The notes under the pieces are model-generated. The model worked only from the letters and a program-made list of their open reading frames with translations. It was not told the DNA's origin and searched no databases. The position numbers were made by a program, and so were the translations under genes. A DNA stretch of 61,101 bases, filler included. It is 7 parts of 7 records of this genome, joined end to end, with 100 filler letters (N's around TTAATTAATTAA, not from the genome) between each part and the next. Parts side by side here need not be neighbours in the genome. Positions count along the whole stretch, not along the records: positions 1 to 16,761 come from SRR31156797_63769; 6 more parts are not named here. One strand, 5' to 3'. Shown one piece after another: positions 1,149 to 16,761 of this stretch (position 1 is its first letter; every line of letters begins with the position of its first letter).

Positions 1149-1238
1149 TGTGATCGCCTTTGAAAAAAAGTGTTACGTTTGTACGTGGCTGTGTCTGTCA
1201 AGGGGAACCGGATTAAAAATCGCCGTTAAAAAAAATGC

Positions 1239-1466: not shown

Positions 1467-2612
1467 ATGTTTTGTGCATCAAAAACACAGATTGAGATCC
1501 GGAAAGCTGCAAGGGAGTTCGCCAAAGGGGAATTTGACAAGGATCAGGCCCATGAACTGGATAAAAATTGCGAATTCCCTGAAGTAATATGGGAAAAGGC
1601 GGCGGACCTCGGGTTTATCGGTATCCATTTCCCTGAGGAATACGGCGGGGGAGGGCTTGGCATATTTGAGAATGTCCTGATTATCGAGGAATTCTGCCGC
1701 AGGGATTCCAGTATCGGAATGGCGCTTTCCCTTGGCGGATTTGCATCTGAATGCGTGTTGCGCTTTGCCTCGGATTCCTTGAGGGAAAAATTCATCGCCG
1801 GCATCGCAGAAGGTAAAATGATGTCCGGCGGGGCGTTTTCCGAAACCGAACGGGGGGGCGATTTTACGGATATACAAACCCGGGCTGTCAAAAAAGATGA
1901 CAGATGGATCATAGCCGGTAAAAAGACACATGTCTTAAACGGCGTACAGGCCGGGTTTTATGTCGTGCTCTGCCGGACAGGGGACGGCGGAGCCCATGGC
2001 CGTGGCATCAGCATGATACTGGTCGAATCCGGCCGTCCCGGTGTAACTGCTGAAAACAGCGGCAGGAAACTGGGGGGCAACATGACCGCCACGGCCAGCG
2101 TTTGCTTTGATGATGTGGCTGTGCCTGTTTCCAATTTGATCGGGGAAGAGGGAAACGGGCTTTCCCAGTTGCGTGCCTTCCAGGATGAAGCCAGGATCGT
2201 CTTTGCCGCCCAGGGGATTGGAATTGCTTTAGGCGCTTTTGACCGGACCCTCGAGTACATAAAAGGGCGGGAGCAGTTTGGCCGGAAAATCGCCGGGTTC
2301 AAGGTGAATCAGCATAAGATCGCGGATATGGCGACCCAAATTGAACTTGCCCGGCTGATCACCTATAAGGCGGCCTTATCGGCGGATAACCGGAACAGCG
2401 ACGGCAGCCTTTCCGCAATGGCCAAGCTCACGGCCGCAAGGACCGCCATGGAAGTCGGCGCCCAGGCCATACAGCTGCTTGGCGGATACGGGTACATGAC
2501 CGAGTACGAAGTTGAGCGATACTACCGTGACGCAAAGGTGATCGAGCTGCTTGGGGGCACCCGGACAACCCAGAAAGATGCCATTGCAGGAAGTGTGATC
2601 GGAAACATATAA
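1467..2612 (+). CDS. Acyl-CoA dehydrogenase family protein (probable non-catalytic subunit)
   Basis: ACAD motifs REQFG and QLLGGYGY..EY.VERYYRDAK are present. The TEPxxGSD motif is degenerate (SETERGGD) and neither canonical catalytic position carries Glu. Confidence 0.9.
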   Translation: MFCASKTQIEIRKAAREFAKGEFDKDQAHELDKNCEFPEVIWEKAADLGFIGIHFPEEYGGGGLGIFENVLIIEEFCRRDSSIGMALSLGGFASECVLRFASDSLREKFIAGIAEGKMMSGGAFSETERGGDFTDIQTRAVKKDDRWIIAGKKTHVLNGVQAGFYVVLCRTGDGGAHGRGISMILVESGRPGVTAENSGRKLGGNMTATASVCFDDVAVPVSNLIGEEGNGLSQLRAFQDEARIVFAAQGIGIALGAFDRTLEYIKGREQFGRKIAGFKVNQHKIADMATQIELARLITYKAALSADNRNSDGSLSAMAKLTAARTAMEVGAQAIQLLGGYGYMTEYEVERYYRDAKVIELLGGTRTTQKDAIAGSVIGNI

Positions 2613-2636
2613 ATACCGGGATAATGAGGATAGATA

Positions 2637-3779
2637 ATGGGACCATTGAAATATACCGGGGAACATGATGCGTTCCGTCAACGGGTGCGCGGCTTTCTTG
2701 CCAAAGAGGTGGTTGCCTTTGCCGATCAATGGGAAAAGGACCGCATCGTTCCTAAAAGCGCCTGGAAAAAGATGGGGGCGGAAGGGTTCTTGTGTACGGC
2801 TGTTTCAAAAAGATACGGAGGGCCGGACAAGGATTTCCTTTACTCGGTGATTGTGGCGGAGGAGATGGTGAAAACCGGCCAGAGCGGCCTTGTATCCGGC
2901 CTGCACAGTGATATTGTCGTGCCCTATATTGGATCATTCGGTTCCGAAAAACTCAAGGAAAAATACCTTCCGGGATGTGTCTCAGGGGATATCATAACGG
3001 CCGTGGCCATGACGGAACCCAATGCCGGAAGCGACCTTGCCTCCATGGAAACCACCGCCGTTGAAGACGGCGATGAAGTGGTCATCAACGGTTCCAAAAT
3101 TTTCATATCCAACGGCGTCAACTGCGATATCGTGATACTGGCGGCAAAGGACCCCGGGGTTGAGAATAAATATGAAGCCGTCTCCCTCTATATCGTTGAA
3201 AACGGCACCAGCGGATTTACCCGGGGCAGGAAACTTGAAAAAATGGGAATGCACAGCCAGGACACGGCGGAACTCTTCTTCACCGATTGCCGGATTCCCA
3301 AAAGCAACCTTTTGGGTGAAAAAGGGGCCGGGTTTATCATGCTGATGCAGAAGCTGCAGCAGGAACGGCTGGTCAGTGCGATCTGGAATGTGGCGGCGGC
3401 CGAGCAGATCCTCGAGATCCTGGTGGCGTATTGTAAAAGAACCGTTGTGGACGGAAAACCCCTTTCGAAAAACCAGGCCATCCGGTTTACCCTTGCTGAG
3501 ATGGCCACTGAAGTCAAAATGAACCGGGTGTTTCTGGACCATGTGATTTCCCGGCATATGGAAGGGGAAGATGTGACCCAGGAGACCATGATGACCAAAC
3601 TGGCGAGCTCTGAAATGAGTAATCATATGATAGACAAGGCCCTGGATCTGTACGGCGAATCCGGCACCCTTGAAAGCAATCCCCTTGTGCGGTGGTTCCG
3701 TGATCTCAGGGTCAACACGATTTTTGCCGGGACAACGGAAATCATGAAAACCATCATTGCCGGAATAATGAAGTTATAA
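2637..3779 (+). CDS. Acyl-CoA dehydrogenase family protein (LCAD-type catalytic Glu)
   Basis: AMTEPNAGSD, GSKIFISNG, KMGMHSQDTAEL, LQQERL and IFAGTTEIMK motifs. Confidence 0.92.
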   Translation: MGPLKYTGEHDAFRQRVRGFLAKEVVAFADQWEKDRIVPKSAWKKMGAEGFLCTAVSKRYGGPDKDFLYSVIVAEEMVKTGQSGLVSGLHSDIVVPYIGSFGSEKLKEKYLPGCVSGDIITAVAMTEPNAGSDLASMETTAVEDGDEVVINGSKIFISNGVNCDIVILAAKDPGVENKYEAVSLYIVENGTSGFTRGRKLEKMGMHSQDTAELFFTDCRIPKSNLLGEKGAGFIMLMQKLQQERLVSAIWNVAAAEQILEILVAYCKRTVVDGKPLSKNQAIRFTLAEMATEVKMNRVFLDHVISRHMEGEDVTQETMMTKLASSEMSNHMIDKALDLYGESGTLESNPLVRWFRDLRVNTIFAGTTEIMKTIIAGIMKL

Positions 3780-3812
3780 GTCGTTATAAATGAACCCGTA
3801 AAGGAGCGAAAC

Positions 3813-5351
3813 ATGCAAAAAAAGTCGACAGGCACGTTCAATATCGGCAATTTCCTTAAAGTCGCCGCAATTCGGTACCGGGACAGGGAAGCGGTTTACT
3901 GCAGCACCACCGGCCGCAGGTACACCTTTCTTGAGCTCAACGACCGGGTCAACCGCCTAGCCAACGGGCTCATGGCCATGGGATTGAAAAAGAATGATGT
4001 GGCGGCGTTCATCTGTACAAACCGCAGTGAAATTCTCGAGATCTTTTTTGCCCTTGCCAAGATCGGCGTGGTTGGCGTTCCCCTGAACTATCGCCTTGCC
4101 ACGGAGGAAATGATCGACCTTGTAAACCATTGCAATGCCGGCGCTTTTTTGTATGATCCCTGGTTCGGTGAAATCGCCGAAAAAGTGCGGGGCAGGCTTC
4201 CCGGGGTTACGGCTTTTGTGGGAATGGGAGAGAATCTCCCGGAATTTGTAACCGATTATGAAACCCTCATTGCCGGGAACTCTTCTGAAGAACCCGGGGT
4301 TGAAATTTCCGAAGAGGATGTCCAGTATTTCAACCTTACTTCCGGAACAACCGGACACCCAAAGGTATATACCCTGACCCACTATAACAATGCCGCCGCT
4401 GTGTCCGTCGTTTCCGCCCACCATGACATCTCCCGGGATGATGTTATTTTGACCGCGTTCCCGATTTTCGGGCGGGTGGGATTCGGCTGGTGCCTTTGCG
4501 GTATTTTAACCGGCGCCCGCAATGTTATCCATCAGTTCCATCCAAAGGAAATCCTCGAGCTTATTGAATCCGAAAAGGCCACCGTAACCAACTGGGTGCC
4601 TGCCATGGCAAGTTTCATTCTCATGCAGGAGGAGTTCGATAAATATGACTTGTCCTCATTACGGGCCCTTATTTTTGCCTCATCCCCCCTGACAAGTGAT
4701 CTTCAGCGGGAGGTCCGGGAGCGTATCTGTCCGAACATCTACGAGTATTACGGTCTTCAGGAATCGGGGGTCCTGGTCAGTGCCGGGGCTGAAGAAAAGA
4801 TGCGCAGGCCTGATTCCGTGGGCCAGCTTGTCTTCAGCGCGGATGTGAGGATCGTGGATACCAAAGGCAATGACGTCAAGACCGGTGAAATCGGAGAGAT
4901 TATCGCACGGTCGCCGTCATCAACGTCCGGTTATTACAGGAATGAAGCAAAAAACAGGGAAAGCTTCAGAAACGGCTGGTTTTACACAGGCGATCTCGGC
5001 CGGTTTGATGGGGAAGGGTTTCTCTATCTTGCGGGACGGATTAAGGACATGATCATAACCGGCGGTCAGAACGTGTTTTCCATGGAAGTGGAGGATGTGA
5101 TCATGGGGCACCCCGGTGTGGCGGAATGTGCTGTCATCGGCCTTCCCCATAACACCTGGGGGGAGGCGGTTACGGCCGTGGTGGTGAGAAAACCGGATGT
5201 TGAGGTGACAAAAGAGGAATTGACCGACTTTGTCCGTGAAAAGATCGCCGGATTCAAAACCCCCAAGGAGATCATCTGGCATGAAGGTCCATTACCCAGA
5301 ACCCCCACCGGCAAAGTCACCAAATTTGTCCTTGTTGAAAAATACACGTGA
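3813..5351 (+). CDS. AMP-forming acyl-CoA ligase
   Basis: LTSGTTGHPK, YGLQES, TGDLG, R.KDMIITGG and PRTPTGKV motifs. Confidence 0.93.
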   Translation: MQKKSTGTFNIGNFLKVAAIRYRDREAVYCSTTGRRYTFLELNDRVNRLANGLMAMGLKKNDVAAFICTNRSEILEIFFALAKIGVVGVPLNYRLATEEMIDLVNHCNAGAFLYDPWFGEIAEKVRGRLPGVTAFVGMGENLPEFVTDYETLIAGNSSEEPGVEISEEDVQYFNLTSGTTGHPKVYTLTHYNNAAAVSVVSAHHDISRDDVILTAFPIFGRVGFGWCLCGILTGARNVIHQFHPKEILELIESEKATVTNWVPAMASFILMQEEFDKYDLSSLRALIFASSPLTSDLQREVRERICPNIYEYYGLQESGVLVSAGAEEKMRRPDSVGQLVFSADVRIVDTKGNDVKTGEIGEIIARSPSSTSGYYRNEAKNRESFRNGWFYTGDLGRFDGEGFLYLAGRIKDMIITGGQNVFSMEVEDVIMGHPGVAECAVIGLPHNTWGEAVTAVVVRKPDVEVTKEELTDFVREKIAGFKTPKEIIWHEGPLPRTPTGKVTKFVLVEKYT

Positions 5352-5430
5352 ATCGAAAAATACACATGTATTCCAACAGATGCCGGGAGATGAAAAATGG
5401 AATCCGAAGTGCTTACGGAGGTGGACAGGG

Positions 5431-5930
5431 CTATAGCTTCAGGACTTTCGCCCCTCGAATGCGCTTGGTCCTGAGCTCCACCAGGGCCTTGTTTGCGTCT
5501 TCCAGCGGAAATTCCTGAATCTCCGGTTTCAGGGCCATCCCGGCCGCAATGGTTAAAAATTCCCCGACGTCCTTCCGGCAGATGTTGGCAACGCTTTTGA
5601 TCTCCTTTCCCTGCCGCTGCGGCAGAACTTGCATTCCCCACAGGCTGAATAGATCCAGGCGATGCCGACCCGGTCTTCCGGCTTGAACCGGTTGGCTTTA
5701 TCGCCCGTTTCCTCCACGTACCCGATCACCTGATGGCCCGGAATGACCGGCAGGTGCGGGGGAGGGGTTCTGCCCTCGATCTCGTCCAGTTCCGTATGGC
5801 AAACCCCGCAGGCCGATACTTTCACCAGTATTTCCAGCTCTCCCGGAACCGGAACCGGAACATCCATGGGATCCAGCGGGGTTGGATTCCCATGGAGTTG
5901 ACAGAGCCTGTTCAATACCATTGCCTTCAT
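5431..5930 (-). pseudogene. Zinc-dependent alcohol dehydrogenase pseudogene (large internal deletion plus frameshift)
   Basis: The N-terminus (MKAMVL..CGVCHTE..GHQ..CGECKFC) is joined out of frame near 5610 to the extreme C-terminus (KEIKSVAN..ANKAL..IRGAKVL). The NAD-binding domain is missing. Confidence 0.85.
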
Positions 5931-6341
5931 TTTTCCCCGGCCCCTTTCCTGTTGTTCCATTGCGAGGTCATGCCCTCTATCATTTATAGTCTCCACGATT
6001 TTAAAATGGTCAAGGGCGTCGGCCTTCCGGTCATGGAAAACGTTCCTTACTTTTCCGTTCATTTTCTTTTCCTGATTGATTTTTTGAAGAACTCTTTGTA
6101 TAGAGCGTATGTCGCTTGCATTATTTTAAAAAAGCGATGGTTGTCCAGGGTAAAACGGAATGGGGGCCATTGATCGATCATGGCTCATGGAAACTGAAAC
6201 GTTGGAGCTATGATGACTATACTTATGAAGAAAAAGGAGACAACCTGCCGCAGTCCGCACTGAATTGTAAGTCTTAAAGAGCGAAACGAGCATTGAAAGA
6301 ATCGTTTTATTTCATGAAGAACATATGAGAAGGAGTATCAG

Positions 6342-7595
6342 ATGAGTATCATTTCAGAGATCGAATTGTATCATGTCCGCATTCCCTTGAAAAAAACATT
6401 CTATCCCAGCTGGATTCCCGGATATCCCTCAACCGACAACAGGTTTGACCTGATCCGCGTGGTCACCAAAAGCGGTGTGGAAGGATATTCCGCAGGGCCT
6501 GCCATTTCCAATGAAAGGCAGGGGCTTGGAGAGCTGATCGCTCCTTACCTCATCGGTGTGGATGCCCTGGATATGGATCTTGTTCTCCAGAGGCTCAGGG
6601 AGGTTTCCTACCTGGGCGTGCGGGCCAACTGGATCGAACCCGCGTTCTGGGATATCCGCGGTAAGATTGAACGCAAATCCGTGTATGAACTTTTCGGCGG
6701 CAGAACCAAGCCGGTGGAACTCTATGCTTCCACTGGAGAGCTCAAATCCGCGGAAAAGCGCATCGAGGAAGCGGAAAAACGGTATGATGAAGGGTTCAGG
6801 ACCATCAAACTCCGGGTCCATGATTTTGACAGGAAGGAGGATGTCAGGCAGGTTGAAGCGGTTGCCAAGGCCGTTGGGCATAAGATGAAAATCGGAGTGG
6901 ATGCCAACCAGGGCTGGCGGGTAACCATTGTCAACGATGCCCCCCTGTGGGATCTTGACCGTGCCATGTATTTTGCCGATGCCTGCCATGACCTGGGTGT
7001 TTCATGGCTCGAAGAACCGCTGCCCATGGACGACTTTGACGCCTTGACCGAACTGACCGACTACAGCAGGGTGCCCATCAGCGGCGGAGAGATTCACACC
7101 AACGGATATCCTGAGCTCAAGGTGATGGTCGAGAAAAAATGCTACGACATCTTCCAGCCGGACAGCATCATGACCGGCGGAATCAAGCAGACCCTGGATA
7201 TCGCCGATTGCTGCCGGGAAAACGGCCTTGGATTTACGCCCCACACCTGGACAAACGGCATCGGTTTTGCCGTAAACCTTCAGGTGATGCTGGCAAGCGG
7301 TTTCAATGGCGTCAAACCCCTTGAATATCCCCTGGATCCCCCCTCATGGACCATTGAAAAACGGGACGGCCTGTTGAGAAAACCCTTTGCCCATGACAAC
7401 GGATTCATGAGGCCCCCGGCCCTTGACGGCCTTGGATTTGAGATTGATGGGGACCAGCTGAAAAAATATGGAAAGCGGTTCTTTCACATGAACAGGCGCA
7501 AACTGATCTTTCATGCCATCCGGGACAAGGGCCTGATAAACGCCGCCAAGCTCCAATACAACCGAAGCAAATACGGGGTGAACATAAATCAGTAA
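6342..7595 (+). CDS. Mandelate racemase/muconate lactonising enzyme (enolase superfamily) protein
   Basis: YAS, KLR, VDANQG, WLEEP, GGE, QPD and PH motifs of the MR-like subgroup. Substrate unknown. Confidence 0.88.
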   Translation: MSIISEIELYHVRIPLKKTFYPSWIPGYPSTDNRFDLIRVVTKSGVEGYSAGPAISNERQGLGELIAPYLIGVDALDMDLVLQRLREVSYLGVRANWIEPAFWDIRGKIERKSVYELFGGRTKPVELYASTGELKSAEKRIEEAEKRYDEGFRTIKLRVHDFDRKEDVRQVEAVAKAVGHKMKIGVDANQGWRVTIVNDAPLWDLDRAMYFADACHDLGVSWLEEPLPMDDFDALTELTDYSRVPISGGEIHTNGYPELKVMVEKKCYDIFQPDSIMTGGIKQTLDIADCCRENGLGFTPHTWTNGIGFAVNLQVMLASGFNGVKPLEYPLDPPSWTIEKRDGLLRKPFAHDNGFMRPPALDGLGFEIDGDQLKKYGKRFFHMNRRKLIFHAIRDKGLINAAKLQYNRSKYGVNINQ

Positions 7596-7629
7596 TCTCC
7601 CGCCCTCACAGGGCCGGGGGAAACTTGAA

Positions 7630-7659
7630 ACCGGCGATACCCCTTGGGGTGACGCCGGT
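7630..7659. terminator. GC-rich hairpin between convergent genes
   Basis: ACCGGCG-ATACCCC-TT-GGGGTGA-CGCCGGT stem-loop; U-tract weak. Confidence 0.5.
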
Positions 7660-7689
7660 CTCTTCCCACGGTTTCCTTGGGCTGGAACC

Positions 7690-9006
7690 CTATGGATGAT
7701 TCAGCGGCTGGTTCCCCATGTGTGTTTTTTTCGTCATTTTCATGACCAGTTCCATCAACATGGCGCAGGCGAAGGAGGGAATGACCCAGGAGAAATCCGA
7801 CTCGTAGAATGGCAGGTGTGATATGAGCTTGCCCGCAAGCCCCGTGTCGATCTTCAGATAGGACAACGCATCAAAAACGCTCACAACCAGGGCGCCCATC
7901 ACGGCGCCGCGATAGAAATGCGAGCTGATTTTTCTGGAGGCAATGGTGAGCACGATCAGAACAATGACCACCGGATAGGCAATAACCAGGAGGGGGATTG
8001 AAAATTTGATGATGTTCTCGATGCCGGATACCGAAATCGCCATGCTGAATATGGTGGTCACAAGGACAATCAGCCGATAACTTACTTTTCCCTTGGTTTC
8101 CTTTTCAAAATAGTTGCCGACAACCGCGGTCAGGCCGATGGAGGTGGTCAGGCAGGCCGCTGAAACCGCAATACACATGGCGGTGCGGCCATAGGGGCCG
8201 AACAGGGTATTGGTGATGGTGATGAGAAGATCCGCCTTGGTGATACCGGCCTGGAACAGATCGCTGCCGGTGGCGCCCAGGTACAGCAGGCCGCCATAGA
8301 CGAACATCAACCCCATGCCTGCGAGCAAGCCGGCATGACAGGCCATGTTGATCTGTTTCCTGGGATCGGTATACCCTTTTTGACACAGGGATACCAGCAC
8401 CAGTCCCCCAAACAAAATGGAAGCCAGGGCATCCATGGTTTGGTACCCTTCCGAAAAGCCGTTTGAGAACGGGTTGGTAAAACCGGTATCAACAGGGGTT
8501 CCCATGGGCGCGGTGACACCTTTGGCGATAATCATGCTGATGATCAGCAGCAGCAACGGGGTCAGATATTTACCGATTTTATCAATAACGCCCGATGGTC
8601 TGAGGGCAAAAAGCAATGTGATGGAAAAGAAAACGGCCGAAACCAATAACGGATCCATATTGGGCAACAAGGGTTTGACGCCTATTTCGTATACCGTGGC
8701 GCCGGTCCTTGGAATGGCAAGGAAAGGCCCGATGGAAAGGACGATCACCGCGCCAAGCACCTTTGCAAAGCCGGGACTGACTTTCCCGGCCAGCCTGTTA
8801 AACGAACCATCGTTTTTTGCAACGGCAATGACCCCCAGTATGGGCAGGCCAACCCCGGTCATGAAAAAACCAAGCACGCACATCAGCCAGTTGTCACCCG
8901 CATGAAACCCCAGGGCCGATGGAAATATCAAGTTCCCTGCACCAAAAAACATCGCAAAAAGAGCTGCTCCGACAATCGCAACATCTTTTTTTTCTTTCCC
9001 TACCAA
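7690..9006 (-). CDS. brnQ: Branched-chain amino acid transporter (LIVCS family)
   Basis: LFAMFFGAGNLIFP, GPFLAIPRT, GYQTMDALAS and ACLTTSIGL motifs. Probable TTG start at 9006 behind a GGAGG RBS. Confidence 0.93.
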   Translation of the reverse strand: MVGKEKKDVAIVGAALFAMFFGAGNLIFPSALGFHAGDNWLMCVLGFFMTGVGLPILGVIAVAKNDGSFNRLAGKVSPGFAKVLGAVIVLSIGPFLAIPRTGATVYEIGVKPLLPNMDPLLVSAVFFSITLLFALRPSGVIDKIGKYLTPLLLLIISMIIAKGVTAPMGTPVDTGFTNPFSNGFSEGYQTMDALASILFGGLVLVSLCQKGYTDPRKQINMACHAGLLAGMGLMFVYGGLLYLGATGSDLFQAGITKADLLITITNTLFGPYGRTAMCIAVSAACLTTSIGLTAVVGNYFEKETKGKVSYRLIVLVTTIFSMAISVSGIENIIKFSIPLLVIAYPVVIVLIVLTIASRKISSHFYRGAVMGALVVSVFDALSYLKIDTGLAGKLISHLPFYESDFSWVIPSFACAMLMELVMKMTKKTHMGNQPLNHP

Positions 9007-9775
9007 ATCTAACCTCCATATTGCCGTTGAACAGGAACCCGGCAAAAATTAATCCATGCACGAAAAAAGTGTGCCGTTCCCTGCTGGGCAGGGCACACGT
9101 AAATTCATAACCGTCAAAATGATCCTGATATAATTGAAAGGCCGGCCGTTCCGTCAACTTCTCTTATTCAAGTTCCCTTTGTTCCGTCATGCCTCCGGGG
9201 GGCATTGGGATGCTTCCTCGGCCCCCTGGACACGCCGGGCGTAAATATCACGTTTCTCTACATAAATACAGGGTAAATTTCAGTTTCATCCAAAGCAGGG
9301 AAAAATTCTTTAGGGTGGATTTTAACTCGCATATCTTCGGGAAGGGAATCGGGTAAAGGTTGTTTACAAAAGGGTGTACTCTATATTGGGTAACTAAACA
9401 TCCTTTCCGGCGTAAACTATGAAAAAAAAATCATAAAACAGTGACAAAGGAGGACATATTGATACTTTTTTTTCATATATTTAATTTTGTGCTGCTGCTT
9501 TCAGGCCTTCACCAGGACCTTGAACTTGGCCGTTTTCTGCAGGTTTGCCGGCGACGCTGGAGCCAAAACTTGTGTCGATGGAGATCAATATCAGATGTAA
9601 GGGCGAAATGCCGGTGAAAAGGGTGGCGGCCAGTCAGGGGGAAGGGGCTCGGCTGAAAACAGTCCGGCGGGGGGGGGCGGTATGAGAACCGGCTGCCACC
9701 GGCCCGGGTGTCGGATAATTTTACGGGTTGATTTTGCCACGGCCCCCACAGCCCGGGAGAAATAGAACCATGGGG

Positions 9776-9820
9776 GGCATCATAACATCCCCCGGTTTGC
9801 ACCGGGGATGTTATGATGCC
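9776..9820 (-). terminator. Long hairpin downstream of the PEP-CTERM gene
   Basis: GGCATCATAACATCCCC(C)GGT-TTGC-ACCGGGGATGTTATGATGCC, a stem of about 20 bp located 12 bp after the stop codon. Confidence 0.7.
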
Positions 9821-9832
9821 ATTTAAAACAGG

Positions 9833-10579
9833 TCAGCTTTTTGGGTAGACCCGCTTGCGGCTGTACCTCGCCAGCCAGAACAGGCCGACACCCGAGAGCA
9901 GGATGGTGGAGGGCTCTGGAGTAGGAACAGGCCCAGGCATATTTGCCGTTATCTGTTCAAATGTGCCAATGGTCATGTCGTCAAAACCAAACCAGTCCTC
10001 TCCATTGGTATTGCTGAAGGAGATAGAGGTGAACGCCAGGTTTCGATCCTTTTCATAAAAACCGAAATAAATGACTGAAGCATTCTCAGCGCCTACCGTA
10101 TGGTCAATGTTCAAGGTGCTGGTGGCTCCGTTTGTATAGTTCAGGATTACCTTTCCGCCAAAATCTCCTATGTCGGTTCCGTAAAATCCAAAAGCTGAAA
10201 TTGCCGTGGAAAAGATGATGTTGAAATTTGAATTTGTTTCCCAGTAGTGGTTTCCGGATGTGGCCCACCTCCCGTCACTTGGCTTTCTCCCGTCATTCGG
10301 CTTTCTTTCAATTGCGCCGCTTCCCGAGAGGGTTGCCGTTCCGGCAACGCCGAAGTCAAGATAGATCGGTCCGTAATCGCCAGCTGTAAAGGTTTCAAAA
10401 TCCTCAGTTTTCACACCGGTCATATTTGACATGAAGTCTGCGTTGGCGGCATCCGCATTCACTCTTCCGCCCCCCATGTCTTCTCCAAAAAAGGAGACCG
10501 CTGTTGCATTGGCACTTCCAGCCAATATAATCAACAAAAACAACATGGTTGCCAATCCTGTCAAATATTTATGTTTCAT
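9833..10579 (-). CDS. PEP-CTERM sorting-domain protein
   Basis: Signal peptide MKHKYLTGLATMLFLLIILAGSANA; C-terminal TPEPSTILLSGVGLFWLARYSRKR; GGAGG RBS. Confidence 0.92.
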   Translation of the reverse strand: MKHKYLTGLATMLFLLIILAGSANATAVSFFGEDMGGGRVNADAANADFMSNMTGVKTEDFETFTAGDYGPIYLDFGVAGTATLSGSGAIERKPNDGRKPSDGRWATSGNHYWETNSNFNIIFSTAISAFGFYGTDIGDFGGKVILNYTNGATSTLNIDHTVGAENASVIYFGFYEKDRNLAFTSISFSNTNGEDWFGFDDMTIGTFEQITANMPGPVPTPEPSTILLSGVGLFWLARYSRKRVYPKS

Positions 10580-10640
10580 TTTTTTTCCTCCCGAAAATAA
10601 ATACATTGCATTTACATGCCGTTCTCTTTCACACAACCTG

Positions 10641-10656
10641 AGCAATTATCGTGCCG
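10641..10656 (-). promoter_or_regulatory. sigma54 (-24/-12) promoter of the PEP-CTERM gene
   Basis: Minus strand reads CGGCACGATAATTGCT, matching YGGCACG-N4-TTGCW. Confidence 0.8.
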
Positions 10657-10819
10657 CTCAGGGTAATTGTTTTTGTGCCACCAAGCCGTTCAATGGCGGA
10701 TTCCCGGAGAGATTAAAGCATGTTTACAAACGGTGTCGCCTATATTACTATTTCTTCAATTCAGGCATCTTCGATGCTGTAACCAGATAACCTTTTGCCG
10801 GATCTGGAAGAGAGAGGAT

Positions 10820-11470
10820 ATGGGCCGGAGACCGCGATCCAAAGAAGAAATTGAAATCATCAGGAACAAGATACTGGAACATGCATTGACCATGATCGTC
10901 GACCATGGCTATGAAGGGTTCAGTATCCGGAAACTGGGTCCCCACGTGGGCATCGCCCCTAAAACGGTCTATAACTATTTCAGGAACAAGGATGAGCTCT
11001 ATCTCCACGTGCTGACCAGGGGATTTGAAATTCTGCACGAGGAATTATGCGGGAGTGCCGATCCATTGGCCGACCCTTTTGAGAAACTGTCGGCCCTGGC
11101 CCTGGCATATGTTCGGTTTGGTATTGAAAAACCCTACTATTACGACATCATGTTCACCCGCTTTGTACCGAAGTATAATGATTTTGTCGGTAAACCACAG
11201 GAACCCATCGCCTTACATGAATTACAGACCGCCTTGAAACCCTTTGATTTCGTTGTCCGGGTGATGGAGGAAATAGCCTCCGTTCATGGTGTTGCCCATA
11301 GGAGTGATGCCCGTACGGCCGTTATTCAGTTGATGGTGGGGCTCCATGGCATTGTCTCCTTGAAAAACAATTCCATCCTCGGTTATGTTTCCGGTGATCC
11401 GGATAATTTGATCGATATATTGCTGGCAAACATCCTTGCCCCTTTCAATCCGGGGGCCAAATCGTCTTGA
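10820..11470 (+). CDS. TetR/AcrR-family transcriptional regulator
   Basis: GYEGFSIRKLG..VGIAPKTVYNYF.NKDEL HTH. ATG at 10820 follows a GAGG RBS. Confidence 0.92.
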   Translation: MGRRPRSKEEIEIIRNKILEHALTMIVDHGYEGFSIRKLGPHVGIAPKTVYNYFRNKDELYLHVLTRGFEILHEELCGSADPLADPFEKLSALALAYVRFGIEKPYYYDIMFTRFVPKYNDFVGKPQEPIALHELQTALKPFDFVVRVMEEIASVHGVAHRSDARTAVIQLMVGLHGIVSLKNNSILGYVSGDPDNLIDILLANILAPFNPGAKSS

Positions 11471-11528
11471 TCCCGGACCGGGCTGTCAGCCGTCAGTCTT
11501 TGGGAGGGACCGTTCGTATAAAAAATAC

Positions 11529-11587
11529 TTGACAATAAATGTAACACTGTTAGCGTTATGATAAAAGTAACAGCGTTACATTTATTG
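11529..11587 (+). promoter_or_regulatory. Promoter with two palindromic operators upstream of the SCP2-GRE operon
   Basis: TTGACA at 11529 and extended -10 TGtTAGCGT at 11548-11556. Palindromes GTAACACTGTTAG (11541-11553) and GTAACAGCGTTAC (11567-11579). Confidence 0.7.
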
Positions 11588-11682
11588 AGTCCGTTAATTT
11601 CCGGGTAGATCCGTTTCCATGGGACGATCCCGGTTAACCAGTGCCTGATACCGCGAATAATTGAGGAAAAGGGAGGGGATGG

Positions 11683-12048
11683 ATGAGATTCAGTCTGCTG
11701 TTGTTTATTCTTCACTTAAAGTTGACCCGGGCCGCCAGAATCAATGTTTCTTTTAAAAAGTTCATCAAGGATAAGTGCCTTAAATTCGGCATCAAGACCG
11801 CTGACGGTTCCAGGGGACGCCTTTTTGTTTTTAACCAGGGCGTCGTTTCCTCCCGCGCCTGCAATCCTGAAGCCCCGGATTCCGCAATGGTCTGGCTGGA
11901 TGCCCATACCGGCTTCCAGGTAATGTCATCGGGCAACGACGAGGCCGCCGTTGCCGCGCTCACCGAAAGAAAGCTCCTGGTGGAGGGGGATTTCAAGGAG
12001 TTCATGTGGTTTTCCAGGGCGCTGGACATAATGATGGGAAAAGCATAA
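11683..12048 (+). CDS. Small SCP2 (sterol carrier protein 2)-like protein
   Basis: 121 aa with strong RBS. The pattern (helix, FxIxT..G..R.F.F..G.V.S, PD..M, AL..RKL.VEGD...MWF) fits the SCP2-like fold; recognised by eye only. Confidence 0.6.
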   Translation: MRFSLLLFILHLKLTRAARINVSFKKFIKDKCLKFGIKTADGSRGRLFVFNQGVVSSRACNPEAPDSAMVWLDAHTGFQVMSSGNDEAAVAALTERKLLVEGDFKEFMWFSRALDIMMGKA

Positions 12049-12064
12049 TCAGGGGAGGTGTCAA

Positions 12065-14611
12065 ATGGGAGTGGTTGCTGAGATTGAGATCCAGGCAAAG
12101 AATCGCAAGCCCTGCGGGATTGTGCCCTTTGATAAGGATTGGGGAACGGGGTACAATGCCTGGGAAGAGAATCCTTCGCCTTTTGCCAGGGTCAACCGGT
12201 TAAAGAAGTTTGTGGACGATCATCCATTCACCGTTGACCATGAACGGGCATGCCTGGTGACCGAAGCCTATAAGAAACATTCGGACAAACCGCAGATAAT
12301 CCGGTGTGCAAAGGCCCTGGCCCATGTGCTGGAAAATTTCACCATTCATATCCATCGCGACGAGCTGATCGTCGGCGAGATGGGGGCTCCGTTGAAATCC
12401 GCTCCCATCTTCCCGGAATTTTCCATGGACTGGATCATGGATGAAATGAAAAATCATCCATGGCGAAAACGCCTCCATGACAGGTATACGATTTCAAAGA
12501 AATCCGAAAAACGGTTAAGGGGGATCGCCGGATTCTGGAAAGGAAAGACGGTTGAAGAGACCGCCATTGCCAGGATGTCCGAAGATGAGTTAAAAGGCAC
12601 CAACCTGGGACGGGGGGTTTATCTCTTGAACCTCTATCTGTCCGGCGGCGTCGGCCATACCCAGGCCAATTACGAGAAACTCTTTGCCAACGGTTTTGGC
12701 GGACTCAGGAAAGAGGTTCGTCAAACAATGCTGTCCCTGGATCCCACCCTTTCGGAAAATCTCAAAAAGCGGGAGTTTTATCAGGCGGAACTGATCGCCC
12801 TTGACGCATCAACGGCGTTTTTAAAACGCTATTCCGCCCTGGCCGGGGAATTGAAAAAAAAGGAGAAAGACCCGGAGTGGAAAAAGGAGCTTTCAAGGAT
12901 CGAAGCAACCTGTGACTGGGTGGCTGAAAATCCTCCCAGGACCTTCCGGGAAGCGTTGCAGCTCTGTTTTATCGCAACCACTATTATCCTGATCGAATCC
13001 AACGGCCATTCCGTGTCCTACGGCCGGTTTGACCAATATATGTATCCCTTTTATGAAAACGACATTGAATCGGGCATCGAAACCAAAGAATCGATCCAGG
13101 AGCTGCTTGAAATCGGTCTTTTCATCAAGGATCTCTGGTGGACGAAGCTGAGGGACCGCCTCACCGTCATTGCCAATTCCGGAAGGGGCATGGGCGGGGA
13201 CTCCCTCACCGTGGGCGGCGTGGATACTGGGGGGAATGACGCCACAAACGATCTGAGTCATATGATCCTCGATGCCCAGGTGCATACCCGATCCGGGGTG
13301 CCCTGGGTGGCCGTCCGCCTCCATGAAAACAGCCCCAGGGAGTTCAAGGTAAAAGCCTTCAACGTTATCCGGGTGGGAACCGGGCAACCCAAGCTCTACA
13401 ATGATCAGGCTGCGATACCCGCCATGATCCGGGGGGGCAGAACCAAAGAGGATGCTTATAACTACCATATCGTGGGCTGCGTTGAGATGGATGCCGGCGG
13501 GAAAGAGTACGGATGGCACGACTCCGCCTATTTCAGCATTGCCAAAATCCTTGAACTGGCCGTCAATGACGGTCGATGCATGGGATGCGGGGCCCATTGT
13601 CCCCGGTGGGACCGGTGCGGGGGCGCCGGAAAGCGGTTGGGGCCTCAAACCGGAAGCCTGGCCGGGTTTACCTCCTTTGACCAGGTCAAACAATCCTATG
13701 ACCGTCAGATGAAGTACTGGTGTGACCGGATGATCGCGGGAACGGAAATCATGGATCTCACCCACCAGGAACTCAAGCCTCTCCCGTTTCTTTCAACCTT
13801 GATGGATGACTGTACCCGGCGGGGAATCGATGTCTCTGCCGGCGGCGCTGTTTACAATTTCACCGGCCCCCAGGCCGTGGGGGTGGGCACCGTGGCCGAC
13901 GGGCTTTCCACCATCAGGCAGCTTGTCTTTGACGAGAAACGGGTGACAGGAAAAGAACTGCTTGACGCTTGTGAGAAAAACTGGGTGGGATATGATCCCC
14001 TGTACGCCCTTGTCAATGGCCGTAAAGTTCATCACTACGGCAATGATGACGATTATGCCGACGACCTGGCCCGCTTCGGGGCCGACACCTATTGCAAGCA
14101 TATTGAGAACCGGCCCAACGCCCGTGGCGGCCATTACCTGCCCGGTGTATATTCGGTTTCGGCCAATGTCGGCCTTGGATTGATCCAGTGGGCATCGGTG
14201 GACGGCAGAAAGGCCCTGGAGCCTGTTTCCGATTGCCTGGGGCCCGTGCACACCCAGGCCGGCTCCCATGACGTCAAAGGGCCCACCGCCATTGCGAAAT
14301 CCGCATCCAAGCTGGACCATGTCCGCGCAACCAACGGCACCCTGCTCAACTGGAAGTTCACCCCTTCCTGCGTTTCCGGGGAAACAGGGCGGGACAACCT
14401 GATTTCACTGATCGACGTCTACTTTGACCGGAAGGGGATGCACAGCCAGTTCAACATTGTCGGCAAGGAAACCCTGGAGGCCGCCCTGGCGGATCCGGAT
14501 GCCTACAAAGATCTGATGGTCCGGGTGGCAGGGTACAGCGCTTACTTCGTCGAGCTGAGCAAGCCCCTGCAGTATGACATCCTGTCCAGAACCGAGCTCT
14601 CCTTTGATTGA
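12065..14611 (+). CDS. Glycyl-radical enzyme, glycerol/propanediol dehydratase-like subgroup, substrate unknown
   Basis: Gly loop LMVRVAGYS (G823), single-Cys loop VGCVE (C472/E474), plus GGVGH, ESNGHS, GRFDQY and GWHDSAYF. Confidence 0.93.
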   Translation: MGVVAEIEIQAKNRKPCGIVPFDKDWGTGYNAWEENPSPFARVNRLKKFVDDHPFTVDHERACLVTEAYKKHSDKPQIIRCAKALAHVLENFTIHIHRDELIVGEMGAPLKSAPIFPEFSMDWIMDEMKNHPWRKRLHDRYTISKKSEKRLRGIAGFWKGKTVEETAIARMSEDELKGTNLGRGVYLLNLYLSGGVGHTQANYEKLFANGFGGLRKEVRQTMLSLDPTLSENLKKREFYQAELIALDASTAFLKRYSALAGELKKKEKDPEWKKELSRIEATCDWVAENPPRTFREALQLCFIATTIILIESNGHSVSYGRFDQYMYPFYENDIESGIETKESIQELLEIGLFIKDLWWTKLRDRLTVIANSGRGMGGDSLTVGGVDTGGNDATNDLSHMILDAQVHTRSGVPWVAVRLHENSPREFKVKAFNVIRVGTGQPKLYNDQAAIPAMIRGGRTKEDAYNYHIVGCVEMDAGGKEYGWHDSAYFSIAKILELAVNDGRCMGCGAHCPRWDRCGGAGKRLGPQTGSLAGFTSFDQVKQSYDRQMKYWCDRMIAGTEIMDLTHQELKPLPFLSTLMDDCTRRGIDVSAGGAVYNFTGPQAVGVGTVADGLSTIRQLVFDEKRVTGKELLDACEKNWVGYDPLYALVNGRKVHHYGNDDDYADDLARFGADTYCKHIENRPNARGGHYLPGVYSVSANVGLGLIQWASVDGRKALEPVSDCLGPVHTQAGSHDVKGPTAIAKSASKLDHVRATNGTLLNWKFTPSCVSGETGRDNLISLIDVYFDRKGMHSQFNIVGKETLEAALADPDAYKDLMVRVAGYSAYFVELSKPLQYDILSRTELSFD

Positions 14612-15582
14612 TGATGACAGACGACACGCTAAACGGTATCGTATTCAATATCCAGCACTTCACCGTCCATGACGGCCCTGGCATCCGTACCGAGATATTT
14701 CTCAAAGGCTGTCCCTTGCAATGCAAATGGTGCAGCAATCCCGAGAGCCTGAAACTCAAACAGGAGGTCGGGGTCCATGGATCACGCTGCATCGGTGTCG
14801 ACAAATGCGGCTATTGTCTCAAAGCCTGTCCCGAATGCGACCGGGGCGTTTTTTTCCTGAATGAAAACCGGGTGGTGGCCATTGACCGAAACCGTTGCAC
14901 CGATTGCCTGAAATGCGCTGAAGCGTGTCCGGCAGACGCCCTTACCACCTGGGGCAATACCCTGTCGGTCAAGGAGGTTATGGCGGAGGTGATGGCGGAT
15001 CTGGAATTCTACGAAAAATCAAACGGCGGCGTAACCATCTCCGGCGGCGATCCCCTCATTCAATGGCCCTTCGCCCTGGCGATCTTAAAGGCGTGCAAGG
15101 AGCAGAATATCCATACCTGTCTGGAGACGGAACTCCATTGCAAAAGCTCCCTGCTGGAGAAACTCTATCCCCATACGGACCTGGTCATCACCGACATCAA
15201 GCACATGGACGGCGGGCGCCACAAAGCGTATACCGGTGTCGGCAACGCCAGGATTCTCGCCAATATCATCAAAACGGTTGACATGGATATGCCCCTGGTG
15301 ATCCGAATCCCGGTGGTCCCCGGCCATAACAACGGTGAAGAGAACATCAGGGCAACAGCTGAGTTTATCTTGAACAAACTGCATAATAAGGTAAAACAGG
15401 TTCAGCTGCTGCCCTACCGTCCCCTGGGAATAGAAAAATACCAGTCCCTGTCCATGGAATACCCCATGGCGAATTGTTCATCCCATGACCCCGGTACCCG
15501 TGAGAAGGAAACTTTAAACCTTGTGTCAATACTGTACTCTTACGGTATCCCGGCGGTGGCCGGTACAAATTCAAAGTATTAA
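14611..15582 (+). CDS. Glycyl-radical enzyme activating enzyme (radical SAM with ferredoxin insert)
   Basis: HDGPGIRT..FLKGCPLQCKWCSNPE, two extra Fe-S motifs and GGVTISGGDP. The start overlaps the GRE stop (TGATG). Confidence 0.95.
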   Translation: MMTDDTLNGIVFNIQHFTVHDGPGIRTEIFLKGCPLQCKWCSNPESLKLKQEVGVHGSRCIGVDKCGYCLKACPECDRGVFFLNENRVVAIDRNRCTDCLKCAEACPADALTTWGNTLSVKEVMAEVMADLEFYEKSNGGVTISGGDPLIQWPFALAILKACKEQNIHTCLETELHCKSSLLEKLYPHTDLVITDIKHMDGGRHKAYTGVGNARILANIIKTVDMDMPLVIRIPVVPGHNNGEENIRATAEFILNKLHNKVKQVQLLPYRPLGIEKYQSLSMEYPMANCSSHDPGTREKETLNLVSILYSYGIPAVAGTNSKY

Positions 15583-15666
15583 CGTTTTTAGACCATGAGC
15601 ATTGCTGAAATAGGTGGTTTTGTAGTTTTAGATAATTTTCGTAGAAAGCGTGTTCGATAAAACAAT

Positions 15667-16443
15667 ATGATTAAAATTGTCAAGACGATTCGTGGGGCTT
15701 GCTATCGCGCTCTCGGGTATTACCCGGCACGCATTGATGGATTGACGTTCAAACTGGATCCGTATCATATTGATTTCTGGAGAAAGGCCGCGGAAGGCAG
15801 ATGGGAACCCCATACCTATAAAGTGCTTTCGCGGTTTATTAATCCTGATACCGTTTATTGTGACCTTGGTGCATGGATCGGTCCCACTGTGATCTACGCC
15901 GCGAAGAAGTGCAGGCGGGTTATCTGTTTTGAGCCGGACCCCGTTGCCTATCGATACCTCTGCTGGAATGTTGAGCTGAACGAGTTGCGGAATGTGACGG
16001 CTTTCAATATTGCATTGGCTGATCGTACTGGAATACAAGGAATGTCAAGTTTCAGAGGCCGTCTTGGAGACAGCATGACCAGCTTGCTCGCCCATGGCCG
16101 GGGAAAAAACAGGGTCCATGTGCTGACCCTGGGGTGGGAGGAATTTATTAATTTTTCCAGGATTGGCAAGATCGATTTCTTAAAGATCGATATTGAGGGA
16201 GGCGAATTTGCCTTGCTTCCTACCTTGAAAGGGTATCTGGCCCAGCACCGTCCTGTTGTGTACCTGTCCCTCCATCCCCATTTGCTCGATGCCGGAACAA
16301 GACAGGAAAAGATGCGGCAGATCATGGACGTAATGGCGATATACGAAAACTGTTTGGATAAAGATCTCAAGCCTGTGGATATTGCTGAATTGATGGGGGG
16401 CGATGCCATGAACCGCGGCCGTTCGTACATATTTATGGATTGA
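15667..16443 (+). CDS. FkbM-family SAM methyltransferase
   Basis: DLGAWIG, CFEPDP and IDFLKIDIEGGE motifs. Confidence 0.9.
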   Translation: MIKIVKTIRGACYRALGYYPARIDGLTFKLDPYHIDFWRKAAEGRWEPHTYKVLSRFINPDTVYCDLGAWIGPTVIYAAKKCRRVICFEPDPVAYRYLCWNVELNELRNVTAFNIALADRTGIQGMSSFRGRLGDSMTSLLAHGRGKNRVHVLTLGWEEFINFSRIGKIDFLKIDIEGGEFALLPTLKGYLAQHRPVVYLSLHPHLLDAGTRQEKMRQIMDVMAIYENCLDKDLKPVDIAELMGGDAMNRGRSYIFMD

Positions 16444-16553
16444 CCGGCGTAGGATGGGAGCGGTGGTCGCAGTGATGTGGAGCTGTGTCGGAAGAGGGGG
16501 AGCCTAGGGCCCTGGACGTGAGGATGATCCATGATCTCTGTGGTCCCTTTGGG

Positions 16554-16761
16554 TTATTGGGTGTGGCAAACCTGGTTACGTCCCTGTTTCTTGGCACAGT
16601 AAAGGCATGTGTCCGCACGCTCGATCAGCTGGGGTGTATCGGTTTTATGGTCCGGAACCATACAGGCAAGGCCGATGCTCACGGTGACATGGTCGGACAC
16701 ATCCGATTTTTCATGGGGGAGGGCCAGTTGCCGGATATTGTGCTGCATTCTGGCTGCCACC
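16554..16761 (-). CDS. Diguanylate cyclase (GGDEF) domain C-terminus, truncated by the contig end
   Basis: VTVSIGLA...LIERADTCLYCAKKQGRNQV is the standard GGDEF-domain C-terminal motif. Confidence 0.88.

What the first reader, a model, noticed from the sequence alone, without database searches (positions are those of the whole stretch)
10820..15582. TetR-controlled SCP2-like + glycyl-radical enzyme + activase operon: candidate new anaerobic radical dehydratase for a lipophilic substrate
Seen: tetR, a promoter with twin palindromic operators, a 121-aa SCP2-like gene, an 848-aa GRE and a translationally coupled activase. No microcompartment, aldehyde or alcohol dehydrogenase, sugar transport or small Bss/Hpd-type subunit genes are adjacent. 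Known: the single-Cys GCVE loop with GVGH, ESNGHS and GWHD is the signature of B12-independent glycerol and propanediol dehydratases. It does not match PFL (CC) or fumarate-adding enzymes, and SCP2 folds bind fatty acids, sterols and isoprenoids. Inference: a diol-dehydratase-type eliminase acting on a hydrophobic vicinal diol (long-chain 1,2-diol, alkylglycerol ether, monoacylglycerol or steroid diol) delivered by the SCP2-like partner. I know of no characterised GRE with this partner.
Basis: partly seen in the sequence, partly recalled or inferred. Interest (0 to 1): 0.85.

Follow-up and report, generated by a model that had tools for sequence, protein, structure and literature searches.

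The report
Radical dehydratase with lipid-carrier partner
An anaerobic bacterium carries a repressor-controlled four-gene unit for an untested oxygen-sensitive radical enzyme of the diol-dehydratase type and a small protein with a lipid-carrier fold, which probably turns a greasy, glycerol-like diol into an aldehyde, although the substrate is not known.

Summary
Observation confirmed: tetR, twin GTAAC-N3-GTTAC operators, a 121-aa gene, an 848-aa glycyl radical enzyme (GRE) and its activase. The small protein has an SCP2 fold. It lies directly before the GRE in all 13 of 76 genome loci with at least 66.8% GRE identity, and in none of the other 63.

The GRE keeps the glycerol-dehydratase catalytic set, but its closest characterised relative is the sulfonate-diol dehydratase HpfG (about 50%). 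It passes NCBI's HpfG cut-off (1093 vs 1000), yet scores far below HpfG stand-ins (1644, 1696). It lacks one HpfG pocket arginine, and its activase fails the HpfH cut-off.

Sister SCP2 proteins sit beside aldehyde oxidoreductases and 2-hydroxyacyl-CoA-lyase-like enzymes. Best reading (0.5): a terminal 1,2-diol dehydratase for a C3-substituted, lipid-tailed diol, with SCP2 carrying substrate or aldehyde. Against: a polar distal pocket with one retained arginine, and two Syntrophomonadaceae sisters with the same pocket but no partner.

The scan noted SCP2-GRE pairings before, mostly fusions, on other DNA; this clade was not found by sequence.

The parts
10820..11470 (+). TetR-family regulator, 216 aa
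   Evidence: PF00440 E 4e-11 and PF13305 E 2e-10. A tetR-like ORF lies in tandem or divergent beside the unit in most related loci.
11529..11534 (+). Putative -35 hexamer TTGACA; -10 uncertain (TAGCGT at a 16-nt spacer would overlap operator 1)
   Evidence: Seen in the sequence; not called by the consensus scan. Inference.
11541..11553 (.). Operator box 1, GTAAC-N3-GTTAC with one mismatch
   Evidence: motif found in 24 of 45 related loci vs 119 of 3000 background windows.
11567..11579 (.). Operator box 2, perfect GTAAC-N3-GTTAC, 26 bp after box 1
   Evidence: twin boxes 25 bp apart also in L005, L008, L016, L086, L090, L095.
11683..12048 (+). 121-aa SCP2-fold protein of a subfamily that Pfam misses
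   Evidence: AF2 pLDDT 92; Foldseek best hit UbiJ-SCP2 E 1.4e-5; VIA wide search best Z 12.2, rmsd 2.7, 111 aligned, and all 10 hits with Z>=8 are SCP2 proteins or SCP2-bearing alkylsulfatase; 34 of 64 family members match PF02036 weakly.
12065..14611 (+). Glycyl radical enzyme, 848 aa, C-O eliminase type, sister clade of HpfG
   Evidence: NF048009 1092.8 bits; 49.9% and 47.2% to HpfG stand-ins, 40.4% to glycerol dehydratase; tree; pocket mapping; model TM 0.90-0.91 to PD and GD.
13577..13618 (+). Cys-rich insertion Cx2Cx3Cx5C (C505, C508, C512, C518) inside the GRE; candidate Zn or Fe-S site
   Evidence: In 49 of 96 aligned GREs, including all 14 of the SCP2-linked clade; absent from the GD, PD and HpfG references. 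Residues 511-520 are poorly modelled without metal (pLDDT 59). Metal binding is inference.
14611..15582 (+). GRE activating enzyme (radical SAM with auxiliary 4Fe-4S insert), coupled by a TGATG overlap
   Evidence: TIGR02494 above cut-off; NF048008 HpfH 392 vs cut-off 500; overlap.

Best explanation
The unit is a TetR-repressed, stand-alone module for one anaerobic reaction. The activase puts a glycyl radical on G823 (established for the family). The C472 thiyl radical takes an H from C1 of a terminal 1,2-diol, E474 deprotonates the C1-OH, H198 protonates the C2-OH, water leaves, and R-CH(OH)-CH2OH becomes R-CH2-CHO (inferred from full conservation of the glycerol-dehydratase set; about 0.85). 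R is larger than in glycerol or propanediol and probably starts with a polar linker and ends in a hydrophobic tail: a 1-O-alkylglycerol, a monoacylglycerol, a glycerophospho-lipid head or a long-chain diol or triol (inferred; about 0.55-0.6). The SCP2-fold protein is an accessory carrier that holds the tail of the substrate or of the aldehyde product and passes it to aldehyde oxidoreductase, alcohol dehydrogenase and beta-oxidation encoded elsewhere (inferred). Shown here: genes, fold, conservation, operator, residues. Not shown: substrate, binding, activity.
For: Catalytic set H198/H315/S316/C472/E474/D486/Y696 equals GD H164/H281/S282/C433/E435/D447/Y640 (roles of H164, C433, E435 from PMC13450708 section 5.6). 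GD Tyr339 is replaced by G377-G378, as in HpfG. SCP2 fold. Small gene directly upstream in 13 of 13 genome loci of the clade, and the clade is the same 14-row group in the tree (SH 100). Of 80 metagenome loci of the small family, all 36 scoring >=159 bits are followed by this GRE (33) or end within about 230 nt (3). The other 44 lie in AOR-MoaD-SCP2-MoeB/ThiF clusters (22) or beside TPP enzymes or an NAD-epimerase-family gene (22). The one downstream TPP enzyme compared with the PDB is closest to 2-hydroxyacyl-CoA lyase, and two AOR clusters carry an acyl-CoA ligase. Downstream of the activase: AOR in L087 and L095; a second SCP2 gene + Fe-ADH + AOR in L009; lipase-family hydrolases in L096 and L082. 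Two other GRE groups carry a fused SCP2 domain: P0117/P0122 (PF02036) and about 1000-aa GREs in 3 of 5 genomes that also hold this unit. Named hosts include Desulfobacteraceae, Desulfoluna, Syntrophaceae and Syntrophomonadaceae, recalled as fatty-acid oxidisers.
Against: Positions that bind the carboxylate in HypD (S334, Y450, T645; PMC7077986 passages) are N371, Y489 and S699 here, and the second HpfG arginine is kept (R374 in 35 of 35 ORFs that matched the loop pattern, duplicates included). The distal pocket is therefore polar and may bind an anion. The sister GREs L013 and L011 (65-66%) keep N/R, tetR and activase but have no small gene in the locus or in their MAGs (MAGs may be incomplete). 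Most loci are bare four-gene units with no lipid gene; the two closest relatives (L015, L002) sit beside corrinoid methyltransferase genes, and L106 has a sulfatase before the small gene. The hydrophobicity of the presumed channel helices (0.5-1.3 vs -0.7 to -0.05 in HpfG, GD, PD, HypD) is matched by sister clades that lack SCP2 (up to 1.6), so it does not discriminate. An SCP2 fold does not by itself show lipid binding.
Confidence: 0.5

Rival explanations
1. It works like HpfG on DHPS or another small anionic C3-substituted diol (glycerophosphate ester, dihydroxy acid); the SCP2 protein is incidental or handles the aldehyde.
For: Passes the NF048009 equivalog cut-off; same 57-row superclade as the HpfG stand-ins; shares G-R-G-[MF]-G-G and the Tyr at position 489 with HpfG; sulfatase before the small gene in L106.
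Against: Score 1093 vs 1644 and 1696 for the stand-ins, and many sister clades with quite different pockets also pass 1000. HpfG R363 is N371, N678 is S699 and Q180 is L187. Activase 392 vs 564 and 594. No TauE- or HpfD-type neighbours among the genes annotated around 13 genome loci, apart from one Fe-ADH in L009. The PNAS HpfG paper could not be read, so the role of R363 is inferred by position.
Confidence: 0.2
2. The small protein is a structural or gating subunit of the GRE (like BSS beta or HPAD gamma in role, but with a new fold) and carries no lipid; the substrate is some neutral substituted diol or polyol.
For: Strict one-to-one adjacency; fused forms in other GRE groups; known small subunits gate the channel or aid solubility (PMC13450708 section 4.2).
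Against: Sister GREs with the same pocket lack it. Sister subfamilies of the small protein accompany unrelated folds (AOR, TPP enzymes), which fits a shared ligand type better than a shared protein surface.
Confidence: 0.12
3. It is an ether lyase: the C1 radical expels an alkoxide or aryloxide from C2 of a glycerol ether, releasing a fatty alcohol or phenol.
For: Same CXE chemistry as CutC, IslA and HpsG, which expel non-water leaving groups; SCP2 partner; ADH + AOR in L009; corrinoid methyltransferases beside L015 and L002 would suit methoxylated products.
Against: H198, H315 and D486 around C2 are the same as in GD, which suggests a free hydroxyl there; the space opened is at the C3 side.
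Confidence: 0.1
4. It is an ordinary glycerol or 1,2-propanediol dehydratase.
For: Best solved-structure matches are GD and PD by sequence and fold; V698 matches the PD-type valine; basal members of the superclade sit beside PocR regulators (L026, L046).
Against: Only 40-42% identity; separate clade; both GD pocket positions F333 and Y339 are changed; no microcompartment, PocR or diol dehydrogenase genes in the unit.
Confidence: 0.08

Closest known systems
HpfG, (2S)-dihydroxypropanesulfonate dehydratase (NCBIfam NF048009; stand-ins from Enterococcus raffinosus L077 and Fusobacteria ZRK30 L078)
   Same: About 47-50% identity; same superclade; same catalytic set; Gly-Gly in place of GD Tyr339; R374 = R366; Y489 = Y481.
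   Different: R363 -> N371, N678 -> S699, Q180 -> L187; Cys4 insertion; SCP2 partner and TetR instead of HpfD/HpfE; gene order GRE-activase rather than activase-GRE; score about 550-600 bits lower.
B12-independent glycerol dehydratase (C. butyricum, PDB 1R8W) and GRE 1,2-propanediol dehydratases (5I2A/5I2G, 9RCO)
   Same: H164/H281/S282/C433/E435/D447/Y640 equivalents all kept; model TM-score 0.90-0.91.
   Different: 40-42% identity; F333 -> N, Y339 -> G-G, F450 -> Y; no microcompartment or dha/pdu context.
GREs with small subunits (BSS, MASS, HPAD)
   Same: A small gene tightly linked to the catalytic subunit; the substrates are hydrophobic or aromatic.
   Different: Those subunits are HiPIP- or rubredoxin-like iron proteins; this one has an SCP2 fold and no conserved Cys; different reaction class.
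SCP2-fold proteins and domains (UbiJ-SCP2, alkylsulfatase SdsA1/YjcS C-terminal domain, SCP2, AF1534)
   Same: Fold: Z 8.4-12.2 over 100-116 residues.
   Different: 8-19% identity; no PDB sequence match to the family profile; ligand unknown.
Uncharacterised SCP2-GRE fusions (P0117/P0122; the about 1000-aa group L172/L175/L176; earlier scan notes)
   Same: SCP2 module paired with a single-Cys GCxE GRE; TetR or AOR neighbours in L175 and L176.
   Different: 26-39% identity to this GRE; P0117 and P0122 fall elsewhere in the tree and lack the H315 equivalent; fused rather than free. L172/L175/L176 were not placed in the GRE tree.

Membership tests
GRE 1,2-eliminase (C-O cleaving) | Gly loop (RVxGY) and single-Cys CXE motif | tested here: met
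   R820-V-A-G823-Y; G471-C472-V-E474; definition from PMC13450708 section 5.6.
GRE 1,2-eliminase (C-O cleaving) | His equivalent to GD H164, plus H281 and D447 around the diol | tested here: met
   H198, H315, D486. The roles of H281 and D447 are recalled.
GRE 1,2-eliminase (C-O cleaving) | Cognate radical-SAM activase | tested here: met
   TIGR02494 329 vs cut-off 174.
GRE 1,2-eliminase (C-O cleaving) | Glycyl radical by EPR and aldehyde formation | not testable with these tools
   Needs anaerobic biochemistry.
HpfG (DHPS dehydratase) | NF048009 score >= 1000 | tested here: met
   1092.8; but stand-ins score 1695.8 and 1643.8, and the wider 47-79% group scores 925-1133.
HpfG (DHPS dehydratase) | HpfH-type activase, NF048008 >= 500 | tested here: not met
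   392; stand-ins 563.6 and 594.1.
HpfG (DHPS dehydratase) | Arg at the pocket position of GD F333 / HypD S334 (presumed sulfonate anchor) | tested here: not met
   N371 vs R363 in both stand-ins; that this position lines the pocket is from PMC7077986; its role in HpfG is inferred.
HpfG (DHPS dehydratase) | Linked hpfD (Fe-ADH) and hpfE/TauE exporter | tested here: not met
   Absent in the window; one Fe-ADH (L009) and no TauE among neighbours annotated in 13 genome loci (not every ORF was scanned). Present in L078.
HpfG (DHPS dehydratase) | DHPS turnover | not testable with these tools
   Needs an assay.
Glycerol / propanediol dehydratase | Aromatic residues at GD F333 and Y339 closing the pocket | tested here: not met
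   N371 and G377-G378. The pocket role of Y339 is recalled, and supported by position from HypD F340.
Glycerol / propanediol dehydratase | Clusters with GD/PD in a tree | tested here: not met
   Separate clades (FastTree, SH-like support only).
SCP2 fold | SCP2 alpha/beta fold | tested here: met
SCP2 fold | PF02036 match | tested here: inconclusive
   Window protein none; 34 of 64 family members match at E <= 0.1, best 7.6e-5; one Atlas cluster has 11% PF02036.
SCP2 fold | Binds a fatty, sterol or isoprenoid ligand | not testable with these tools
   Needs a binding assay or a structure.
BSS/MASS/HPAD small subunits | Conserved Cys ligands for Fe-S or Fe; HiPIP or rubredoxin fold | tested here: not met
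   No Cys among the invariant or 90%-conserved columns; the fold is SCP2.

The most novel reading that the evidence does not exclude
The unit is an oxygen-free entry into ether-lipid breakdown. The GRE dehydrates the free diol of 1-O-alkylglycerols to 3-alkoxypropanal, which loses the fatty alcohol by beta-elimination, directly or after oxidation and CoA activation. The SCP2 protein ferries the lipid or the long-chain aldehyde, and the Cys4 insertion is a metal site in the catalytic chain. This would be a GRE eliminase acting on a membrane-lipid-sized substrate, with a non-iron accessory protein of a fold that GREs appear to have recruited more than once.
Probability: 0.15. Interest if true: 0.9.

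Novelty: new variant of a known kind. Interest (0 to 1): 0.62.

Why it matters
The 2026 review lists six C-O-cleaving GREs, all on small polar substrates, and small subunits only for BSS, MASS and HPAD, all iron proteins. A diol-dehydratase-type GRE with an SCP2 partner would extend radical dehydration to lipid-like molecules and could explain part of how glycerol ethers or long-chain diols are opened without oxygen in sediments and digesters. A cultured carrier exists (Desulfoluna limicola ASN36, L016), and the operator gives a ligand-discovery handle through the TetR. There is also a practical point: NCBI's HpfG model cut-off sweeps in this and several other uncharacterised clades, so DHPS-degradation surveys based on it will over-count.

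Tried and rejected
No whole genome is held for the window, so co-occurring pathways in this organism could not be checked.

The complex prediction of GRE with the small protein gave no answer (score 0.00, alignments not used); it is not used either way.

The HpfG primary paper (Liu et al. 2020, PNAS) was not held under its DOI, PMC id or PubMed id, so HpfG pocket roles are inferred by alignment. A family search of whole genomes with NF048009 failed on the accession. blastn of the GRE gene against E. coli genomes found nothing.

Profile comparison of the small family with full-length P0117 showed no similarity, so that SCP2 domain is a different subfamily. The family profile had no PDB sequence match.

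P0065, a 364-aa small-protein + GRE N-terminus fusion, is a single sequence that ends in an apparent frameshift. I treat it as a likely read-through artefact and do not count it as a fusion.

One marine-sediment metatranscriptome held 6% of the words. Its contigs cover short pieces of the small gene, GRE and activase, none at 99% identity or more, but also flanking genes, so they do not show transcription.

The first tree run timed out; FastTree was used, leaving out 16 of the locus GREs (15 redundant GD/PD-like rows and one distant GRE). Split or truncated GREs under 770 aa were not in the alignment. Channel hydrophobicity did not discriminate.

Literature: no relevant paper for glycyl radical + SCP2 + dehydratase, + sterol carrier, + ether lipid + anaerobic degradation, or + vicinal diol + long-chain + lipid. 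Searches gave nothing useful. Subscription journals are not covered, and no search was made for the Cys insertion beyond a word check in the review.

Full report
Observation. The window is a set of contigs joined by N spacers; the finding lies on the first (1-16761). The intergenic stretch holds a 27-bp-arm inverted repeat made of two GTAAC-N3-GTTAC boxes, the only two on the contig; 1 of 20,000 shuffles gave two. The same box lies upstream of the small gene (or the GRE) or of tetR in 24 of 45 related loci: 16 in the 400 nt before the small gene or GRE, 8 more only before tetR. The background is 119 of 3000 random 400-nt windows; two windows were tested for 16 of the loci, so chance there is about 8%. 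Twin boxes 25 bp apart recur in six loci. That the TetR binds them is inference.

The small protein. It has no family hit of its own, but 64 relatives of 110-127 aa were found. The AlphaFold model from their alignment (pLDDT 92) matches only SCP2 folds at high score: Foldseek UbiJ-SCP2 E 1.4e-5; wide VIA search best Z 12.2, rmsd 2.7 over 111 residues, with all ten hits at Z >= 8 being SCP2 proteins or an SCP2-bearing alkylsulfatase, then a drop to 6.4. 34 of 64 members match PF02036 weakly. No Cys is conserved, so it is not a BSS/HPAD-type iron subunit (PMC13450708 section 4.2).

Linkage. Of 76 genome loci fetched with the GRE (the best 80 of 599 confirmed stretches), the small gene lies directly upstream in all 13 with at least 66.8% identity and in none of the other 63; some of those are cut short. 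These 13 plus the window form one clade (SH 100). The next relatives, two Syntrophomonadaceae GREs at 65-66%, keep tetR, operator-like boxes and activase but have no small gene in the locus or in their genome assemblies. In the reverse test, 80 of 130 metagenome loci of the small family were kept. All 36 scoring >=159 bits are followed by this GRE (33) or end within about 230 nt (3). Twenty-two lie in AOR-MoaD-SCP2-ThiF clusters and 22 beside TPP enzymes or an NAD-epimerase-family gene; after merging at 95% identity the counts are 29, 3, 10 and 13 of 55. Two of the TPP-class loci have a biosynthetic acetolactate synthase instead. The one downstream TPP enzyme compared with the PDB is closest to 2-hydroxyacyl-CoA lyases. 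The common thread of dehydratase, lyase, AOR and ADH is an aldehyde, which suggests the small protein handles a lipophilic aldehyde or its precursor (inference). The clade is rare: 2 of 401 genomes sampled from the phylum of Desulfoluna (one of them the centre genome) had a GRE above 70%, both with the small gene. Named carriers span Thermodesulfobacteriota, Spirochaetota, Actinomycetota and Bacillota, which suggests a mobile cassette.

The GRE. NCBIfam would name it HpfG (1092.8 vs cut-off 1000), but its activase fails the HpfH cut-off (392 vs 500). I obtained two HpfG stand-ins from plasmids: E. raffinosus (1695.8; activase 563.6) and Fusobacteria ZRK30 (1643.8; activase-GRE-TauE-FeADH). They are identified by score and context, not by assay. 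The window GRE is 49.9% and 47.2% identical to them, 40.4% to C. butyricum GD and 42.1% to a PD-type GRE. The wider 47-79% group scores 925-1133 and splits into subclades with different pockets. So HpfG is one branch of a mostly uncharacterised radiation. The model superposes on PD and GD at TM 0.90-0.91.

Pocket. H198, H315, S316, C472, E474, D486 and Y696 equal GD H164, H281, S282, C433, E435, D447 and Y640, and V698 stands at GD S642. The review gives the GD mechanism (E435 deprotonates C1-OH, H164 protonates C2-OH) and says HpfG has only a homology model. GD Y339 is replaced by G377-G378, as in HpfG, which opens room beyond C3. The three positions that bind the carboxylate in HypD (S334, Y450, T645; the paper equates S334 with GD F333) are N371, Y489 and S699 here and R363, Y481 and N678 in the HpfG stand-in. 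The second HpfG arginine (R366) is kept as R374 in every ORF matching the loop pattern (35, duplicates included). The distal site is therefore polar but less cationic than HpfG's. It fits a polar linker or a mono-anion better than either a bare hydrocarbon or a sulfonate. I could not see coordinates, so the direction of R374 is unknown. The helices that I take, from the review's description and the model, to line the substrate channel are more hydrophobic than in HpfG, GD, PD and HypD, but so are those of sister clades without SCP2.

Residues 505-518 form a Cx2Cx3Cx5C insertion, present in 49 of 96 aligned GREs including all of this clade, and absent from the GD, PD and HpfG references. An HpfG-like fragment (P0140) has it, so it may be ancestral in the superclade. 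A metal site is the natural inference; the review has no main-text passage on zinc or insertions.

Other SCP2-GRE pairings. P0117 and P0122 (the P0122 cluster includes an Odinarchaeota member) carry a PF02036 domain on a distant GRE. Three of five genomes with this cassette also encode about 1000-aa GREs (two measured at 26% identity) whose N-termini weakly match the small-family profile (E 7e-6 to 8e-5). Earlier scan notes describe such fusions in at least 17 genomes, one mentioning a separate small gene (8 shown; AI notes, leads only).

Mechanism and odds. Diol-dehydratase chemistry on a terminal 1,2-diol about 0.85; a lipid-tailed C3-substituted substrate with SCP2 as carrier 0.5 overall; DHPS or a small anionic diol 0.2; structural subunit with a neutral diol 0.12; C2 ether lyase 0.1; plain glycerol or propanediol 0.08. 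Supporting neighbours are few (AOR in L087, L095 and L009; hydrolases in L096 and L082). Others point elsewhere (corrinoid methyltransferases in L015 and L002, a sulfatase in L106). The physiology of the hosts, the aerobic ether-cleaving route and the beta-elimination chemistry in the novel case are recalled knowledge, not results of calls.

Papers seen. PMC13450708: abstract, sections 4.2, 4.3 and 5.6, and word passages. PMC11489063: passages. PMC7077986: passages. Liu et al. 2020 PNAS: nothing; its text and supplement may settle which HpfG residues bind sulfonate and whether this clade was already drawn in its similarity network. Searches for a GRE-SCP2 or GRE-lipid-diol link found no relevant paper.

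Verdict. A real, conserved, regulated unit. It works like a GRE diol dehydratase, and is not HpfG, GD or PD by the features tested. It is a new variant of a known kind with an untested substrate. Interest 0.62.

Noticed in passing
window 13577-13618: Cx2Cx3Cx5C insertion in the GRE, shared by 49 of 96 aligned GREs, mostly of the HpfG superclade; candidate metal site.
   Followed up: partly
L110:1324-4909, L142:3088-7444 and 42 similar loci: Sister subfamilies of the small SCP2 protein in AOR-MoaD-SCP2-MoeB/ThiF clusters and in NAD-epimerase-family-SCP2-HACL-like-Zn-ADH clusters; possible anaerobic 2-hydroxy-fatty-acid or long-chain aldehyde modules.
   Followed up: partly
L014, L030, L032, L028, L034, L035, L033, L025, L031, L022, L017, L019: Pairs of HpfG-superclade GREs (tandem or divergent) with different pocket residues; where an activase is visible there is often one for the pair. 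TRAP transporters lie near L028 and near single-GRE loci L027 and L042. Could be an enantiomer or substrate pair.
   Followed up: no
L040:2088-15117, L041:3930-13829: GREs at 50% identity beside Fe-ADH, aldehyde dehydrogenase and an acetyl-CoA hydrolase/transferase-family gene in gut Bacillota; suggests a C4 substrate such as 3,4-dihydroxybutyrate or butanetriol (inference).
   Followed up: no
NCBIfam NF048009: The cut-off of 1000 admits many non-HpfG clades; HpfG stand-ins score above 1600.
   Followed up: yes
L172, L175:1878-4883, L176:4308-7268; P0117, P0122: Two further GRE groups with N-terminal SCP2-type domains; L175 has a TetR and activase, L176 an AOR.
   Followed up: partly
P0066; L181:297-2840; P0155: SCP2-like domain fused to a 3-hydroxyisobutyrate-dehydrogenase-like enzyme; an apparent SCP2 domain (by eye) on a fused 2-oxoacid dehydrogenase E1; a GRE with an inserted F5/8 type C domain.
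   Followed up: no
window 1467-5351, 6342-7595, 9833-10645: Same contig: two acyl-CoA dehydrogenases and an acyl-CoA ligase in one run, a mandelate-racemase-family enzyme, and a PEP-CTERM protein divergent from tetR; no link to the GRE unit was seen in relatives.
   Followed up: partly
window 5553-6062 (-): Short ORF with only the N-terminal part of a zinc alcohol dehydrogenase; probably a broken gene.
   Followed up: no
window after 16805: The rest of the window is other contigs joined by N spacers, with G+C from 0.41 to 0.57; they may not all come from one organism.
   Followed up: no
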